From Candidatus Zixiibacteriota bacterium (GTDB lineage Bacteria > Zixibacteria > MSB-5A5 > UM-FILTER-46-8): DNA of 58,446 nt. The stretch spans positions 1 to 58,446 of the forward strand of contig WJIJ01000086.1 in NCBI GenBank assembly GCA_014730345.1, read 5' to 3'. Positions 11,301 to 42,835 of the stretch are shown one piece after another. The position numbers and the translations under genes are program-made. A model generated the notes under the pieces. That model was not told where the DNA came from, did not search any database, and saw nothing but the letters and a program-made list of their open reading frames with translations. The number at the start of each line of letters is the position of its first letter. The first letter of the stretch is position 1.

Positions 11301-11483
11301 GTTGTAAATCTCGACATTTATAACCTTTCCGGCCAGAAGGTCGCTACTTTGATTGACGGCAAGATGGAAGCCGGTTACCATGATGTAACCTGGGATGCTT
11401 CCGAATACTCCAGCGGAATTTATTTCTACAGGATGAACGCCGGAGAATTCTCCGCTACCAAGAGAATGACCCTCTTGAAGTAA
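8391..11483 (+). CDS. Secreted multidomain S8 subtilisin-like serine peptidase (bacillopeptidase F-like) with MIPD module and C-terminal sorting domain
   Basis: Catalytic triad SLDTGVD / YHGTHTMG / GTSMATPHVAG; prodomain; carboxypeptidase-regulatory-like EGQVTDA domain; AYPNPFN...KRMTLLK; aaggagg RBS. Confidence 0.93.
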   Translation: MAQKLTVVLLALLLAAGFSASAFAGDIASGLDNYIIQNNLQEEFTPVIIVMDQRVDTRAMNDEFDANNTPLAERHALIMTALQETADRTQIPVVRRIEQLKSEGLVSDYSQLWISNIICMSAKYSAIQEIASMTAVGRIYYDAEMELIAPVDEPKPGSGGDLTSVEQGLIAINANDVWAMGITGSGTLVSSLDTGVDGNHPALYDRWRGHDSRYQNNPEWAWHDPLTGTNFPFDDGYHGTHTMGTVCGADNSGGDTVGVAVDAEWISAGVVDRGGDLPTRMQRYLVAFQWTADPDGNPNTMWDVPCVSSNSWGHYPGSMPGGDCDDWYWDALDNLEAMGCLVVLAAGNEGTLGLRNPGVRATDDYNSFAIGAVDGNTTGWPIASFSARGPSYCTPSGDPAIKPEVCAPGVDVNSCYPGGSYTTLSGTSMATPHVAGVVALIKQANPNLTTEMVKQILMDTAYDLGSSGEDNTYGWGMIDAYEAVMVALSYLQGYGVIEGQVTDAFSGDGLEATVTITNRQPPIVAQCNSSGYYSMLVPADTAWNLQAEYPDYSPGYATVTVTEDDTVTQNFQLNPPPVAIDMIPDEYPIYLHPGESFTYTGVLTNQTSMQIYGDVWLMLDVPGIGMYGPLQLYQHVPLAPGQTITVPGISQYVPTFAPIGTYEYIAIAGMYPNYELARTSFDFTVLPEGGAPAEVCILCADYTDNWHGARDLLLDNPNVLSVDFIDVQNSTPSLNDLLAYNVVLVWSNYQFADATALGNVLADFVEVGGGVVTCEFAHYGGWALGGRYMTDYSPMGAGNTGYGDANIVIDDPNHPIMIGVNSGSEYYNFNVPLAGNNPQLLCHYDNGYNGTIVNGDVVRCVALNNYFGDQHASWTGDIGAMMVNAVVYSAANSFSLAFPSPEGYLDAYAAEDENVVSATVVNNSMAATEVIGMAGRGGAGELPIEYGLNDAYPNPFNASAKIVIALPEASVVNLDIYNLSGQKVATLIDGKMEAGYHDVTWDASEYSSGIYFYRMNAGEFSATKRMTLLK

Positions 11484-11534
11484 GCTGTCTTACTATGCCG
11501 CGAACAACCAAAACCGCGGTAAAAAATAAAGTAC

Positions 11535-11563
11535 ATCCGGCAGACCGATGCGGTCTGCCGGAT
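11535..11563. terminator. Perfect 13-bp inverted repeat after the peptidase (terminator or REP-like)
   Basis: atccggcagaccg-atg-cggtctgccggat; only a weak T tract follows. Confidence 0.6.
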
Positions 11564-11784
11564 TAAATTTTCACAGCCGTCATTAGCTTTAAATAATTAA
11601 ATGGAACTATTGATTCATGTTCTATATTGATATATTTACAGCAACCTGGATAAATGACATCGGCGGAAAAAGTTAAGGTGATTTCATAAATTATGAAAAA
11701 TGTTTTGTTCAATGGCTGAGATTGAGATGATTGTTAGACAAATTTTGAGGTAGTATTAATATTATGTTATATGCAAATTACCTC

Positions 11785-11813
11785 TTGACAAGAAAGCATC
11801 TGCTATTTATAAT
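11785..11813 (+). promoter_or_regulatory. Consensus sigma70 promoter
   Basis: TTGACA (11785-11790), 17-nt spacer, TATAAT (11808-11813), an exact match. Confidence 0.85.
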
Positions 11814-11832
11814 ACTGTAGCTTAATTTTTTA

Positions 11833-11976
11833 AACCATAGCGATCGTTTTTCTTCGAATGGCTATGGTTGGGGCAGGTTCTTTAAATTCAAGTCTCGGTT
11901 CAGATTTCATCTGAACATCTGTTATTCAGGGTAGTGTGAATTAGGTTGCACATTAGAAGCATTGAATCACTATCCT
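11833..11976 (+). other. Structured 5' leader (three hairpins) or small RNA
   Basis: aaccatagc/gctatggtt (11833-11869), gttcagat/atctgaac (11898-11916), agggtagtg/cactatcct (11928-11976), starting just after the predicted TSS. Confidence 0.4.
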
Positions 11977-12154
11977 AAAAGTTACAGCCATATTAGTCAT
12001 ATAACAATATTCAGTTAACTTATTGAACTATAGGTTGTTATTAAGCAATATTCTAATCGGCAAGCAAATTGCATGGGATATAAGAAATTGAAAAATCGAT
12101 ATAGTAAATTTTCGAATTTTATCTTTGGACGGGTTTTAAAACAGGAGGTGCAAC

Positions 12155-12853
12155 ATTTATAATACTGAGGTAAGGCATACGGTTTTTACAAAAAGGGAAA
12201 AAATAGAAGCTTCCAAGTGGAGCGATTCGAAAACTAAAAGGGTTTTTGAAATTCTATTTTCGGGCACATTAATTCTGCTTCTATCGCCCATAATGATAAT
12301 GGTGGCGATATTGAACAAAATTCTGGATCCCAAGTATCCCATTATTTACAAACAGATACGCCTCGGCAAAAATGAGATCCCGTTTGAATGTTATAAGTTT
12401 CGCACCATGATTGACAGCCACGACAATGGTCAACCGTCGCAACCCAAAGAAAAGAAAGAGTTTACCAACGTTTTCGAACGTACCAAAGTTACTAACTGCA
12501 AGAAAATCACTCCCTTTGGCGCTTTAATCCGTAAGTACTACATCGATGAATTACCTCAGTTATTCAATGTTTTAAAAGGCGATATGTCCTTGATTGGCCC
12601 CCGTCCCAATGAAAAATATCAGATTGATTATATCAGAAAAAGTCATCGTGATTTCGAACGGCTGTTGAAAATAAGGTATTCCACCAAACCCGGCCTTACT
12701 GGACCATGGCAGGTCGACCCCAATAAATTCGACCTTACTGACAGGGAAATTATCCAGCGCGATATTGATTATATCCAGAATGCTACTTTGAAATCTGATA
12801 TTAAACTTTCTCTTGTTACAGTCCTGAGGGTCCTCGGCGGCTTTGGACAATAA
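12155..12853 (+). CDS. Priming sugar transferase (Bac_transf, WcaJ/CpsE-like), probable ATT start
   Basis: YKFRTM, DELPQLFNVLKGDMSLIGPRP, KPGLTGPWQV. The conserved N-terminal KRVFEILFS...LLLSP lies upstream of the track ATG 12293. AGGAGGT at 12143-12149 precedes in-frame ATT 12155. Confidence 0.85.
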   Translation: MYNTEVRHTVFTKREKIEASKWSDSKTKRVFEILFSGTLILLLSPIMIMVAILNKILDPKYPIIYKQIRLGKNEIPFECYKFRTMIDSHDNGQPSQPKEKKEFTNVFERTKVTNCKKITPFGALIRKYYIDELPQLFNVLKGDMSLIGPRPNEKYQIDYIRKSHRDFERLLKIRYSTKPGLTGPWQVDPNKFDLTDREIIQRDIDYIQNATLKSDIKLSLVTVLRVLGGFGQ

Positions 12854-12942
12854 AGCATTTTCCATTTTACGAAATTTATATTTGCCCTTTGATAATTAGG
12901 GCATTTATTTTTTATTTTCGAGAATATCAAAATTGATCGAAT

Positions 12943-13713
12943 ATGAATGATAATCCTTTGTTAAATGAAGTTTCGGATAGGGAAGTTGAACTCCTGGGCA
13001 CAAAGCTATGCAAATGCACCATAGAAGAGGGAGTGAATTTAATCGATGATGCGATTTCATCCGGAGGTAAGTACCGTGTTATCATCCGTAATGCCGCCTG
13101 CATTAATCTATCTTTTGCCAATGAAGAATACCGCGATGCAGTAGCCGGTTACCATATGCGTTTCGTGGATGGTATCGGTGTTTACCTTGCCGGTAAAATC
13201 CTCAAAGGCATCGGGTTTCCGGATTTAGGGGGTAATCCTTTCGGAAGGGCAATACTTCAGCGTTGCGCCGAAAAAGGATACAGGGTTTACCTGCTGGGCG
13301 CTAAACAGGAAGTTGTGGCTAAGGCGGCGGAGAATTTTCAAAAATGGCATCATGGATTAAAAATCGCCGGTTATCATCACGGGTACTTCGACCTTGAAAA
13401 CTGCGGTGATATTATCGAGGAGATTAATAAAACTGAACCCGACCTGGTGATGGCCTGCTTCGGAAAACCTGAAGAGGTTTTCTGGATTGCGCGTAATTTC
13501 GATAGTTTGAGAGCGAAAGTTATGATTCCCATGGGCGGATTTTTTGATTTCCAATCCGGGCATACTCGCAGGGCGCCGGAATGGATTTTAAAGATGCGTT
13601 TCGAGTGGCTTTTTCGCCTGCTTATCGAACCAAGACGACTATGGAGACGCTATATCATAGGCAATACCATTTTCATGACCCGCGTTTTCCGTTATAAACT
13701 ATTTGGTAAGTAA
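12943..13713 (+). CDS. WecB/TagA/CpsF family glycosyltransferase
   Basis: DGIGV, VYLLGAKQEV, GYHHGYF, GGFFDFQSG..RRAPEW.....FEWLFRL..EPRRLWRRY. Confidence 0.92.
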   Translation: MNDNPLLNEVSDREVELLGTKLCKCTIEEGVNLIDDAISSGGKYRVIIRNAACINLSFANEEYRDAVAGYHMRFVDGIGVYLAGKILKGIGFPDLGGNPFGRAILQRCAEKGYRVYLLGAKQEVVAKAAENFQKWHHGLKIAGYHHGYFDLENCGDIIEEINKTEPDLVMACFGKPEEVFWIARNFDSLRAKVMIPMGGFFDFQSGHTRRAPEWILKMRFEWLFRLLIEPRRLWRRYIIGNTIFMTRVFRYKLFGK

Positions 13714-42068: not shown

Positions 42069-42835
42069 AGGTAGCGATTTTGGCGGGGGGAGTGGGAACC
42101 CGCCTTGTAGAAGAAACAGAGATTAAACCCAAGCCCATGGTTGAAATCGGCGGTAAACCTATTCTGTGGCATATAATGATGCATTACGCCCACTTTGGTT
42201 ACAAAGATTTTATTATCGCCCTGGGCTACAAAGGGCATGTGATAAAAAAGTATATGGTCGATTATTGTTCATTGAATTCAAACCTTACCGTTAACCTTTC
42301 AAGCGGCGAGGTAACTATACATAACGGTTCTAAGCAGGATTGGAATGTTGAGCTGATAGATACTGGCATGCCCACCCTGACCGGCGGGAGGATAAAACGC
42401 CTCAAGCCCTATATAGGTGATGAAACCTTCATGCTTACCTGGGGCGATGGAGTTTCCGATGTAGATCTGGATAAACTCCTCCAGTTCCACCGTTCGCATG
42501 GAAAACTGGCTACCCTGACCGCCGTACGCCCCCCGGCCCGTTTCGGACACCTCGAATTCGAAGGGGAAAAGGTGGTGCAGTTCTCCGAGAAACCGCAGAC
42601 CGCGGAAGGATGGATAAACGGGGCTTTCTTTGTTCTTGAACCGGGCATATTCAACTATATCGACGGGGACATGACCCAATGGGAGAAGGAACCGCTGGAG
42701 AGGTTAGCCGCCGATGGGCAGTTGATGGCATATCGCCACGGCTCCTTCTGGCAATGCATGGATACTTTGAGAGATAAAAAGCTGTTGCAGGATTTATGGG
42801 ATAATGGCAACCCACCCTGGAAATTATGGAGATAA
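42065..42835 (+). CDS. rfbF: Glucose-1-phosphate cytidylyltransferase
   Basis: ILAGGVGTRL.EET..KPKPMVEIGGKPILWHIM, TGGRIKR, F.EKP, WINGAFF, FWQCMDTLRDK. Confidence 0.93.
   Translation: MKVAILAGGVGTRLVEETEIKPKPMVEIGGKPILWHIMMHYAHFGYKDFIIALGYKGHVIKKYMVDYCSLNSNLTVNLSSGEVTIHNGSKQDWNVELIDTGMPTLTGGRIKRLKPYIGDETFMLTWGDGVSDVDLDKLLQFHRSHGKLATLTAVRPPARFGHLEFEGEKVVQFSEKPQTAEGWINGAFFVLEPGIFNYIDGDMTQWEKEPLERLAADGQLMAYRHGSFWQCMDTLRDKKLLQDLWDNGNPPWKLWR

What the first reader, a model, noticed from the sequence alone, without database searches (positions are those of the whole stretch)
12137..12295. Priming glycosyltransferase appears to start at a rare ATT codon
Seen: between in-frame TAA 12137 and CTG 12275 there is no ATG, GTG or TTG, yet the conserved KRVFEILFSGTLILLLSP segment (from 12236) lies in that interval. 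A strong SD, AGGAGGT (12143-12149), sits 5 nt before in-frame ATT 12155. Known: AUU initiation is rare (infC, pcnB), inefficient and sensitive to IF3. Inference: a very strong promoter paired with throttled translation, possibly linking polysaccharide initiation to translational state.
Basis: partly seen in the sequence, partly recalled or inferred. Interest (0 to 1): 0.65.

Follow-up and report, generated by a model that had tools for sequence, protein, structure and literature searches.

The report
Sugar-priming enzyme gene starts at ATT
In this uncultured Zixibacteria genome and its relatives, the gene for the enzyme that starts a cell-surface polysaccharide very probably begins at the weak start codon ATT behind an unusually strong ribosome-binding site, which is a new example of a known way to keep a protein scarce and explains why public gene models cut the protein short.

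Summary
TAA 12137, AGGAGGT(G) 12143-12150 and in-frame ATT 12155 are all present. No ATG, GTG or TTG lies in frame before ATG 12293. That ATG is residue 47, after the Ser44-Pro45 kink of the membrane helix that this enzyme class needs.

The gene encodes a 232-residue monotopic phosphoglycosyl transferase (PF02397, PglC/WbaP fold).

Comparative evidence makes ATT the real start:
- Five independent orthologous lineages, down to 51% identity and including all five species of the order, have GGAGGTG, 4 nt, then ATT at the same position.
- A sixth lineage has ATG exactly there, behind a much weaker SD (-8.3 against -13 to -16 kcal/mol).
- This is the only position with any possible start codon in all eight sequences.
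- In-frame stops lie 2-7 codons upstream in four of the six lineages.
- An independent 93%-identical assembly rules out a sequencing error.

infC in all five genomes starts at ATA behind GGAGG, so control through weak start codons appears to operate in this clade.

Reduced expression and coupling to IF3 are inferred, not shown. This is a well-supported new member of a known kind (infC, pcnB, ebpA, cvfC1). Interest is moderate. It has practical value for annotation, because every public gene model inspected for these lineages except the ATG lineage's (five inspected, a sixth inferred) has the wrong start.

The parts
11785..11813 (+). Sigma-70-type promoter, TTGACA-17-TATAAT
   Evidence: 12 of 12 consensus match. 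A TTGACA lies 302-410 nt upstream of the start codon in all six lineages, but the -10 is an exact consensus only here and in L014.
11835..11886 (+). Hairpin near the 5' end of the leader (CCATAGC 11835-11841 / GCTATGG 11861-11867), followed by the conserved box GGGCAGGTTCTTTAAA (11871-11886)
   Evidence: Every lineage has a hairpin of different sequence ending 2-4 nt before a GGGCAnGTTCTWTWA-like box. The box occurs once in this genome. There is no Rfam match. Function unknown.
12137..12139 (+). In-frame TAA that closes the frame 6 codons before the start
   Evidence: Equivalent in-frame stops lie 2-7 codons upstream in L008, L009/G003 and L001.
12143..12150 (+). Extended Shine-Dalgarno AGGAGGTG, 4 nt before the start codon
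   Evidence: It is a perfect 8-nt complement of the 16S rRNA 3' end CACCTCCT found in this genome. Duplex energy is -14.0 kcal/mol, reached by 1.8% of 1976 long ORFs. GGAGGTG is conserved in all ATT lineages.
12155..12157 (+). ATT initiation codon (proposed)
   Evidence: This is the only position with a possible start codon in all 8 orthologous sequences: ATT in 7 and ATG in 1. It stays ATT in a 93%-identical independent assembly in which both neighbouring codons carry synonymous changes.
12155..12853 (+). Full coding sequence of the 232-residue monotopic phosphoglycosyl transferase, stop included
   Evidence: PF02397 at 177.6 bits, profile positions 1-178 on residues 28-227. Sequence matches to WbaP (query residues 8-226) and PglC (27-228). 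AF2 model pLDDT 84.4. Foldseek match to PglC 8e37, E 7e-14, TM 0.80.
12230..12325 (+). Membrane-associated helix (residues 26-57) with K28-R29 and the Ser44-Pro45 kink (12284-12289)
   Evidence: Helix 26-57 in the model. P45 is invariant and K28/R29 nearly invariant in 65 homologues. S44 and P45 are invariant among the orthologues.
12293..12295 (+). Internal ATG (Met47), the start used by the public 186-residue gene model
   Evidence: the ORF listing and P0001. The position is not conserved as a start: it reads CTG, ATT or ATA in other lineages.
12943..13713 (+). Downstream WecG/TagA-family glycosyltransferase, probably in the same transcription unit
   Evidence: PF03808 at 173 bits. It sits next to the transferase gene in 5 of 6 lineages. 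Its own SD is weak, -5.8 kcal/mol.

Best explanation
The gene at 12155-12853 encodes a 232-residue monotopic phosphoglycosyl transferase. This enzyme class puts the first sugar-phosphate on the lipid carrier. Translation starts at AUU 12155.

Proposed mechanism:
- The 30S subunit is held in place by an 8-nt Shine-Dalgarno, AGGAGGUG, that pairs perfectly with the 16S rRNA 3' end and lies 4 nt upstream.
- Initiator tRNA then decodes the near-cognate AUU, so the protein should begin with (f)Met-Tyr-Asn-Thr-Glu.
- By analogy with infC, pcnB, ebpA and cvfC1, initiation at AUU is several-fold to 100-fold less efficient than at AUG and is opposed by IF3. The strong SD makes the site usable, and the weak codon keeps output low.
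- The likely benefit is a low, steady level of an enzyme that commits the scarce undecaprenyl-phosphate carrier.

Shown here: the position of the start, the conservation of ATT together with the strong SD, the need for the N-terminal segment, and the weak ATA start of infC in the same genomes. Inferred: reduced efficiency, IF3 sensitivity and the physiological reason.
For: 1. The frame is closed by TAA six codons upstream, and no canonical start precedes residue 47.
2. Residues 28-46 are the first half of the membrane helix, including K28, R29, S44 and P45, which are conserved family-wide. The WbaP alignment reaches back to residue 8. A start at ATG 12293 would therefore remove a required part.
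3. Five independent lineages at 51-77% identity, including all 5 species of the order held in GTDB, have GGAGGTG, 4 nt, then ATT. A sixth has ATG at that codon.
4. That codon is the only site with a possible initiator in all 8 sequences.
5. The codon is always ATT, although ATT makes up only 42% of internal Ile codons in these genes. Five lineages all with ATT has P about 0.013.
6. The first 27 codons have no indel or stop in any lineage, whereas the leader is full of indels.
7. SD energy is -13.2 to -16.0 kcal/mol in the ATT lineages and -8.3 in the ATG lineage. The genome median is -6.0.
8. All 80 distant PGT loci from other phyla have canonical starts, so the absence here is specific to this clade.
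9. infC in all 5 genomes of the order lacks a canonical start and has ATA; GGAGG precedes it in four (G001 shows only GGG), which is the same design.
10. Precedent: in S. aureus, conserved AUU/AUA starts all carry extended SDs and give about 10% of AUG output (PMC13009471). The ebpA ATT start was proven by mutagenesis (PMC4447247).
Against: There is no direct evidence of initiation. No RNA, ribosome-profiling or proteome data exist for this uncultured organism.

dN/dS over the N-terminal extension is saturated between lineages. Only two close pairs are informative (pN/pS 0.19-0.23 over codons 2-46) and they rest on few changes.

Residues 1-14 are predicted disordered (pLDDT below 50) and, apart from the Y-N-T-E motif, are weakly conserved.

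The link between ATG and a weak SD rests on a single ATG lineage. The tree leaves open whether ATT or ATG came first.

One species (G003) also has an ATG at codon 8, which NCBI used for its model, so a downstream start is possible in that species.

The strong SD might compensate largely for the weak codon, in which case the 'throttle' would be small.
Confidence: 0.85

Rival explanations
1. ATT is the true start but has no regulatory meaning. It would be a nearly neutral substitution tolerated because the very strong SD largely restores initiation, or because little enzyme is needed anyway.
For: The SD is in the top 2% of the genome. One lineage works with ATG and an ordinary SD. Nothing here measures expression.
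Against: A single T-to-G change would restore ATG, yet ATT persists in five lineages down to 51% protein identity, with synonymous sites saturated. The third base of the codon never drifts to ATC or ATA. In tested cases AUU behind an extended SD still gives only about 10% of AUG output (PMC13009471).
Confidence: 0.2
2. Translation starts further downstream at another in-frame codon, with a different start in each lineage. In this window that would be ATA 12203, CTG 12275 or ATG 12293.
For: These codons exist in the window. G003 has ATG at codon 8 and NCBI annotated that start. Public gene callers chose downstream starts.
Against: None of these positions is shared between lineages, and none has an SD. 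Starts after residue 28 remove the KR motif, and starts after residue 45 remove the Ser-Pro kink of the membrane helix. The conserved strong SD would then have no purpose. The Y-N-T-E motif directly after the ATT is conserved through synonymous changes.
Confidence: 0.06
3. The N-terminus is supplied by recoding, that is, a frameshift or stop-codon read-through from an upstream ORF that has a canonical start.
For: A four-codon TTG mini-ORF (12125-12139) ends at the TAA, as read from the sequence. L005 has an open frame upstream containing GTG and TTG.
Against: No upstream ORF or slippery site is conserved. The in-frame stops lie at different distances (2 to 61 codons) and the upstream sequence aligns poorly. 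Upstream of the ATT, only the SD is conserved.
Confidence: 0.02
4. The ATT is a sequencing or assembly error, or the gene is a decaying pseudogene.
For: The window comes from a metagenome-assembled genome. No reads from its own sample could be laid on position 12157.
Against: The same ATT appears in at least seven independent assemblies from different studies, including a 93%-identical relative in which positions 12154 and 12160 differ but 12155-12157 do not. The reading frame is intact, and all catalytic and structural motifs are kept.
Confidence: 0.01

Closest known systems
E. coli infC (IF3) and pcnB AUU start codons
   Same: It is a conserved near-cognate AUU initiator behind an SD, maintained by selection, and the established effect of such a start is low, IF3-sensitive initiation. 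The same genomes also carry a non-canonical (AUA) infC start.
   Different: The gene class differs: a membrane sugar-priming enzyme rather than a translation factor or poly(A) polymerase. No autoregulatory loop is implied for the transferase. Efficiency and IF3 dependence were not measured here.
S. aureus cvfC1 (AUU), ccpN (AUA) and infC (AUA) with extended SD motifs (PMC13009471)
   Same: A weak AUH start codon is paired with an unusually long, start-proximal SD, and both are conserved among relatives. In that study output was about 10% of AUG.
   Different: Those starts were mapped by retapamulin ribosome profiling and tested with reporters. Here the evidence is comparative only. The phylum differs too (Zixibacteria), and most genes in this genome have weak SDs (median -6 kcal/mol).
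Enterococcus faecalis ebpA ATT start (PMC4447247)
   Same: The annotated downstream ATG is wrong, and the true start is an upstream ATT that attenuates production of a cell-surface component.
   Different: ebpA encodes a pilus tip protein, and there the ATT supplies the signal peptide. Here it supplies the membrane helix of an enzyme. The ebpA case was proven by in situ mutagenesis.
PglC (Campylobacter) and the catalytic domain of WbaP (Salmonella), monotopic phosphoglycosyl transferases
   Same: Same Pfam family and fold. It shares the N-terminal helix with basic residues and the Ser-Pro kink, the Asp-Glu pair in DELPQL, and the PRP motif.
   Different: It is only 33-34% identical. It carries a 27-residue N-terminal extension absent from PglC and an insert at about residues 87-105. 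The sugar substrate is unknown. The orthologue group is confined to one order of Zixibacteria.

Membership tests
Monotopic phosphoglycosyl transferase (PF02397 Bac_transf; PglC/WbaP type) | Match to the family profile above the curated cut-off over its full length | tested here: met
   177.6 bits against a cut-off of 27. Profile positions 1-178 of 179 lie on residues 28-227.
Monotopic phosphoglycosyl transferase (PF02397 Bac_transf; PglC/WbaP type) | N-terminal membrane-associated (re-entrant) helix with basic residues at its start and a Ser-Pro break | tested here: met
   K28 and R29 are nearly invariant and P45 invariant in 65 homologues. S44-P45 are invariant in the orthologues. The model has a helix at 26-57 with pLDDT above 90. 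The re-entrant topology itself was not tested.
Monotopic phosphoglycosyl transferase (PF02397 Bac_transf; PglC/WbaP type) | Catalytic Asp-Glu pair and the neighbouring PRP motif | tested here: met
   D131, E132, P149, R150 and P151 are invariant in 65 homologues. They align with DELPQLFNVLKGEMSLVGPRP of WbaP. The catalytic role is taken from published work on PglC, not tested here.
Monotopic phosphoglycosyl transferase (PF02397 Bac_transf; PglC/WbaP type) | Fold similar to solved PglC/WbaP structures | tested here: met
   Foldseek gives 8e37_A at E 7.4e-14 and TM (target) 0.80, and 8t53_A (WbaP) at E 9.4e-12. No other fold scores below E = 3.
Monotopic phosphoglycosyl transferase (PF02397 Bac_transf; PglC/WbaP type) | Transfer of a sugar-1-phosphate from a nucleotide sugar to polyprenyl phosphate | not testable with these tools
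   This needs an enzyme assay or complementation.
Genes initiated at a near-cognate AUU codon (infC/pcnB type) | No canonical start codon available upstream of a required part of the protein, with the frame closed upstream | tested here: met
   TAA lies 6 codons upstream, and there is no ATG, GTG or TTG before residue 47.
Genes initiated at a near-cognate AUU codon (infC/pcnB type) | Shine-Dalgarno at working distance from the AUU | tested here: met
   AGGAGGTG with a 4-nt spacer, at -14.0 kcal/mol against this genome's own 16S 3' end.
Genes initiated at a near-cognate AUU codon (infC/pcnB type) | The non-canonical codon is conserved, or replaced by AUG at the same site, in orthologues | tested here: met
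   ATT in 7 sequences (5 independent lineages) and ATG in one lineage at the same codon.
Genes initiated at a near-cognate AUU codon (infC/pcnB type) | Initiation mapped directly to the AUU (N-terminal peptide, toeprint or ribosome profiling) | not testable with these tools
   No RNA or ribosome data are available for this organism.
Genes initiated at a near-cognate AUU codon (infC/pcnB type) | Lower output than with AUG, and sensitivity to IF3 | not testable with these tools
   Inferred from published cases. The weak ATA start of infC in the same genomes shows only that the design is used in this clade.

The most novel reading that the evidence does not exclude
The AUU start of the priming transferase and the AUA start of infC may form a small IF3-tuned set in this Zixibacteria order. 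When IF3 is scarce relative to ribosomes, both would be translated better, so the first committed step of an envelope polysaccharide would follow the cell's translational state. The conserved promoter and the structured leader (hairpin plus GGGCAnGTTCTWTWA box) would supply steady, high transcription, giving low-noise, low-level enzyme production.
Probability: 0.15. Interest if true: 0.6.

Novelty: new member of a known kind. Interest (0 to 1): 0.4.

Why it matters
First, annotation. Of the public gene models inspected, the only one with the right start belongs to the ATG lineage. The other models are 186, 190, 195, 202, 225 and 260 residues long, against a true length of 229-232. The truncated ones lack the membrane helix, so they would look inactive or would mislead modelling.

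Second, it adds a membrane sugar-priming enzyme, from a poorly known candidate phylum, to the short list of genes whose weak AUU start is kept by selection. It also shows the pairing of a weak codon with a very strong SD in a genome where strong SDs are rare.

Third, it offers a testable idea: cells may limit the enzyme that commits the scarce lipid carrier at the level of translation. I found no paper in the searchable library that links an ATT start to a phosphoglycosyl transferase.

Tried and rejected
1. Reads at 12157. No run from the source sample was served. Only a 93%-identical relative covers the site, and it keeps ATT. No RNA runs were listed.

2. dN/dS of the N-terminal extension. 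Synonymous sites are saturated between lineages (pS 0.6-0.9), so the ratio says little. I used the absence of indels and stops, and conservation at each position, instead.

3. The search for related loci on genome contigs. The patterns it chose were generic for the whole family and returned only relatives at 30-40% identity. I reused those 80 loci as a control set.

Only two extra copies of a lineage already known were recovered.

5. A genome-wide scan for other non-canonical starts behind GGAGG found no enrichment of ATT, ATC or ATA over other codons. Only infC and this gene stand out, so a clade-wide relaxed start code is rejected.

6. Leaderless or internal-promoter reading. The TTTAAA-17-TATAAT match at 12135-12163 is not conserved, because other lineages read TAC AAT or TAC AAC there.

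7. An SD-masking structure or thermosensor around the start. No shared structure was found, and the SD is variably accessible across lineages.

8. A specialised NusG paralogue of the RfaH, LoaP or UpxY type that might act on the leader. Only one NusG gene was found in the 93%-complete genome.

9. Rfam search of 11400-12400 found nothing above noise.

10. The tree could not decide whether ATT or ATG is ancestral, because the base of the clade is a trichotomy.

Full report
**What is in the sequence**

TAA lies at 12137-12139. AGGAGGT lies at 12143-12149 and continues as AGGAGGTG to 12150. ATT at 12155-12157 is in frame with the open frame that ends at 12853.

In that frame, the window has only these possible initiators between the TAA and ATG 12293: ATT (codon 1), ATA (codon 17, 12203), ATT (33), ATT (40), CTG (41, 12275) and ATA (46). 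There is no ATG, GTG or TTG. The ORF listing therefore reports only a 186-residue ORF from ATG 12293. A public protein cluster with that truncated form exists (P0001).

**What the gene is**

Read from the ATT, the 232-residue product matches Pfam PF02397 (Bac_transf) at 177.6 bits. Profile position 1 falls on residue 28, the K of KRVFEIL at 12236.

Against solved structures:
- It aligns with WbaP over residues 8-226.
- It aligns with PglC over residues 27-228.
- An AlphaFold2 model built on 65 homologues (pLDDT 84.4) has a long helix at residues 26-57.
- By Foldseek the model matches only PglC (8e37, E 7e-14, TM 0.80) and WbaP (8t53).

K28 and R29 are nearly invariant across the 65 homologues. 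P45, D131-E132 (in DELPQL) and P149-R150-P151 are invariant. S44 and P45 are invariant among the orthologues. This is a small monotopic phosphoglycosyl transferase, the enzyme class that starts lipid-linked glycan synthesis.

Met47, encoded by ATG 12293, lies after the Ser44-Pro45 kink. The annotated 186-residue product would therefore lack the first half of the membrane helix.

**Organism**

The genome is 3.58 Mb in 204 contigs, 47% GC and 93% complete. It belongs to candidate division Zixibacteria, according to the name NCBI gives a member of an orthologue's protein cluster. The closest relative's assembly comes from a hypersaline lake metagenome.

**Orthologues decide the question**

The large protein search found only six close clusters (51-99% identity). 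Five of the six were called with the wrong start: lengths 186, 190, 195, 202 and 260, while P0003 (229 aa, the ATG lineage) starts at the right codon. I fetched their DNA and the orthologues in all five species of the order held in GTDB. The start regions are:

| Lineage | Identity to window | Start region |
|---|---|---|
| window | - | acAGGAGGTGcaac ATT tat aat act gag |
| L014 | 98-99% protein, 93% DNA, independent assembly | acAGGAGGTGcaat ATT tac aat act gag |
| L008 | 77% | aaCGGAGGTGcgtt ATT tac aat gca gaa |
| L009 / G003 / G004 | 67-72% | aAAGGAGGTGtgtt ATT tac aac act gat |
| L013 / G001 | 51-52% | gaCGGAGGTGcatt ATT tat aac act gaa |
| L005 / G002 | 51-52% | aaCCGGAGGTGtgtt ATT tat aag act gag |
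| L001-L004 | 59% | caatAGGTGaaat ATG tat aat act gag |

Five independent lineages keep ATT behind GGAGGTG with a 4-nt spacer. One lineage has ATG at exactly that codon.

Further points from the same comparison:
- That codon is the only position between the upstream stop and residue 47 where all eight sequences have any possible initiator.
- In-frame stops lie 2-7 codons upstream in four of the six lineages.
- The peptide after it, Y-N-T-E/D, is conserved through synonymous changes (TAT/TAC, AAT/AAC).
- Upstream of the ATT, only the SD is conserved.
- The first 27 codons contain no indel or stop in any lineage, while the leader aligns only with many gaps.
- ATT makes up 42% of internal Ile codons in these genes, so five lineages all with ATT would be unlikely (about 0.013) if this were an ordinary Ile codon free to drift.

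Outside the order, the phylum (285 genomes) has only large paralogues at about 40% identity. In 80 distant homologues from many phyla, every gene has a canonical start upstream of the KR motif.

**Error and pseudogene are excluded**

No reads from the source sample were available. The contig of a 93%-identical relative covers the site. It differs at 12154 and 12160 but not at 12155-12157. With at least seven independent assemblies agreeing, and all functional motifs intact, neither a sequencing error nor decay is tenable.

**The ribosome-binding site**

The genome's 16S rRNA ends in GGATCACCTCCTTTCT, so AGGAGGTG pairs perfectly over 8 nt.

| Site | Duplex energy with the 16S tail (kcal/mol) |
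|---|---|
| ATT lineages | -13.2 to -16.0 |
| ATG lineage (L001) | -8.3 |
| Median of 1976 long ORFs in this genome | -6.0 |
| infC | -12.5 |
| WecG gene immediately downstream | -5.8 |

Only 1.8% of the long ORFs reach -14.0. The weak codon is thus paired with an exceptional SD, and the one lineage with a strong codon has an ordinary SD. That contrast rests on one ATG lineage. The tree (orthologues monophyletic at 100/99, basal trichotomy) does not say which state came first.

**Is this a general habit of the organism?**

No. A genome-wide scan behind GGAGG shows no excess of ATT, ATC or ATA over other codons. The two clear cases are this gene and infC.

infC has no canonical start before its N-terminal domain and reads AGGAGG-cgcggc-ATA. 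The same holds in all five genomes of the order, with ATA in all five and GGAGG upstream in four; G001 shows only GGG. The classical weak-start design of IF3 is therefore present in this clade, which makes IF3-sensitive initiation of the transferase plausible.

**Mechanism proposed**

- Step 1, partly shown: transcription from a conserved promoter. TTGACA lies 302-410 nt upstream of the start in every lineage, but the exact TATAAT is found only in this species and L014. The transcript runs through a roughly 335-nt leader.
- Step 2, shown by sequence and energy: strong anchoring of the 30S subunit by the 8-nt SD.
- Step 3, inferred from conservation and architecture: initiator tRNA decodes AUU, giving (f)Met-Tyr-Asn-Thr-Glu.
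- Step 4, inferred from infC and pcnB, from ebpA (PMC4447247) and from the S. aureus AUU/AUA starts that all carry extended SDs and give about 10% of AUG output (PMC13009471): low, IF3-opposed initiation.
- Step 5, inference from general knowledge of lipid-carrier sequestration in polysaccharide pathways: the benefit is a low, steady amount of the enzyme that commits undecaprenyl phosphate. High transcription with low translation is also the combination expected to minimise cell-to-cell noise.

**Rivals**

- Neutral ATT with no regulatory role: about 0.2 (an alternative reading of the main explanation's throttling part, not exclusive of ATT being the start).
- A downstream start specific to each lineage: about 0.06. 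G003 does have an ATG at codon 8, and NCBI used it.
- Recoding from an upstream ORF: about 0.02.
- Error or pseudogene: about 0.01.

**Comparison with what is known, and novelty**

As an enzyme it meets every sequence and fold criterion of the monotopic phosphoglycosyl transferases. As a start site it meets every comparative criterion of an AUU-initiated gene. Direct mapping and efficiency could not be tested.

I found no paper in the searchable library linking an ATT start to this enzyme class. Earlier notes of this scan report several conserved ATT starts in other genes and phyla. The kind is known, so this is a new and well-supported member.

**Verdict**

The ATT start is very probable (0.85). 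The regulatory reading is plausible but untested. Interest is moderate (0.4).

Noticed in passing
window 11785-11886; L008 1298-1400; L009 2500-2600; L001 1465-1565; L013 1165-1275; L005 2789-2900: The leader has a conserved 5' module. A TTGACA promoter lies 302-410 nt upstream of the start in all six lineages. It is followed by a hairpin whose stem sequence differs in every lineage (compensatory changes) and ends 2-4 nt before a conserved box, GGGCAnGTTCTWTWA. There is no Rfam match. The box occurs once in this genome, and the module is confined to this order. Only one NusG gene is present, so an RfaH/LoaP-type factor is not evident. This bears on the separate first-stage note e1-5212474.
   Followed up: partly
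genome contig C28 about 42322-42606 (outside the window); L251-L254: infC (IF3) in this genome and in all four other species of the order has no ATG, GTG or TTG before its N-terminal domain and evidently starts at ATA 6-7 nt behind GGAGG (in G001 only GGG is visible).
   Followed up: yes
L001 1840-1860 (also L002-L004): The only orthologue lineage with ATG at the start position has lost the GGAGG core of the SD (aatAGGTGaaat; -8.3 against -13 to -16 kcal/mol). This looks like compensation between codon strength and SD strength, but it is a single lineage.
   Followed up: partly
window 12884-12918: Between the transferase gene and the WecG-family gene lies a short GC hairpin (GCCCT-9 nt-AGGGC) followed by a T-rich run (atttattttttatttt). 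It could be a partial terminator or attenuator inside the operon. The consensus scan did not list it.
   Followed up: no
L102 (G003) codon 8 of the orthologue; protein P0121: One species of the sister genus has an ATG at codon 8 (K-M-G), where its close relative G004 has ACG. NCBI's 225-residue model starts there. A canonical alternative start may be arising in that species.
   Followed up: partly
L009/L010 3001-5468: In genus g4 the WecG/TagA-family gene is not next to the transferase gene. A 397-residue ORF without a Pfam match follows after about 700 nt. The upstream neighbour differs in almost every lineage (RidA-like, SurE, EutN, S8 protease), so the conserved unit is the leader plus the transferase gene.
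   Followed up: no
window 11535-11563: A perfect 13-bp GC-rich hairpin lies just after the S8 protease/T9SS-tail gene. It reads as a terminator on both strands and separates that gene from the promoter of the transferase operon.
   Followed up: no
whole genome: Strong SDs are uncommon in this Zixibacteria genome. The median SD duplex energy is -6 kcal/mol, and only about 190 ATG-started long ORFs have GGAGG at 4-9 nt. The two weak-start genes therefore stand out by their SDs.
   Followed up: partly
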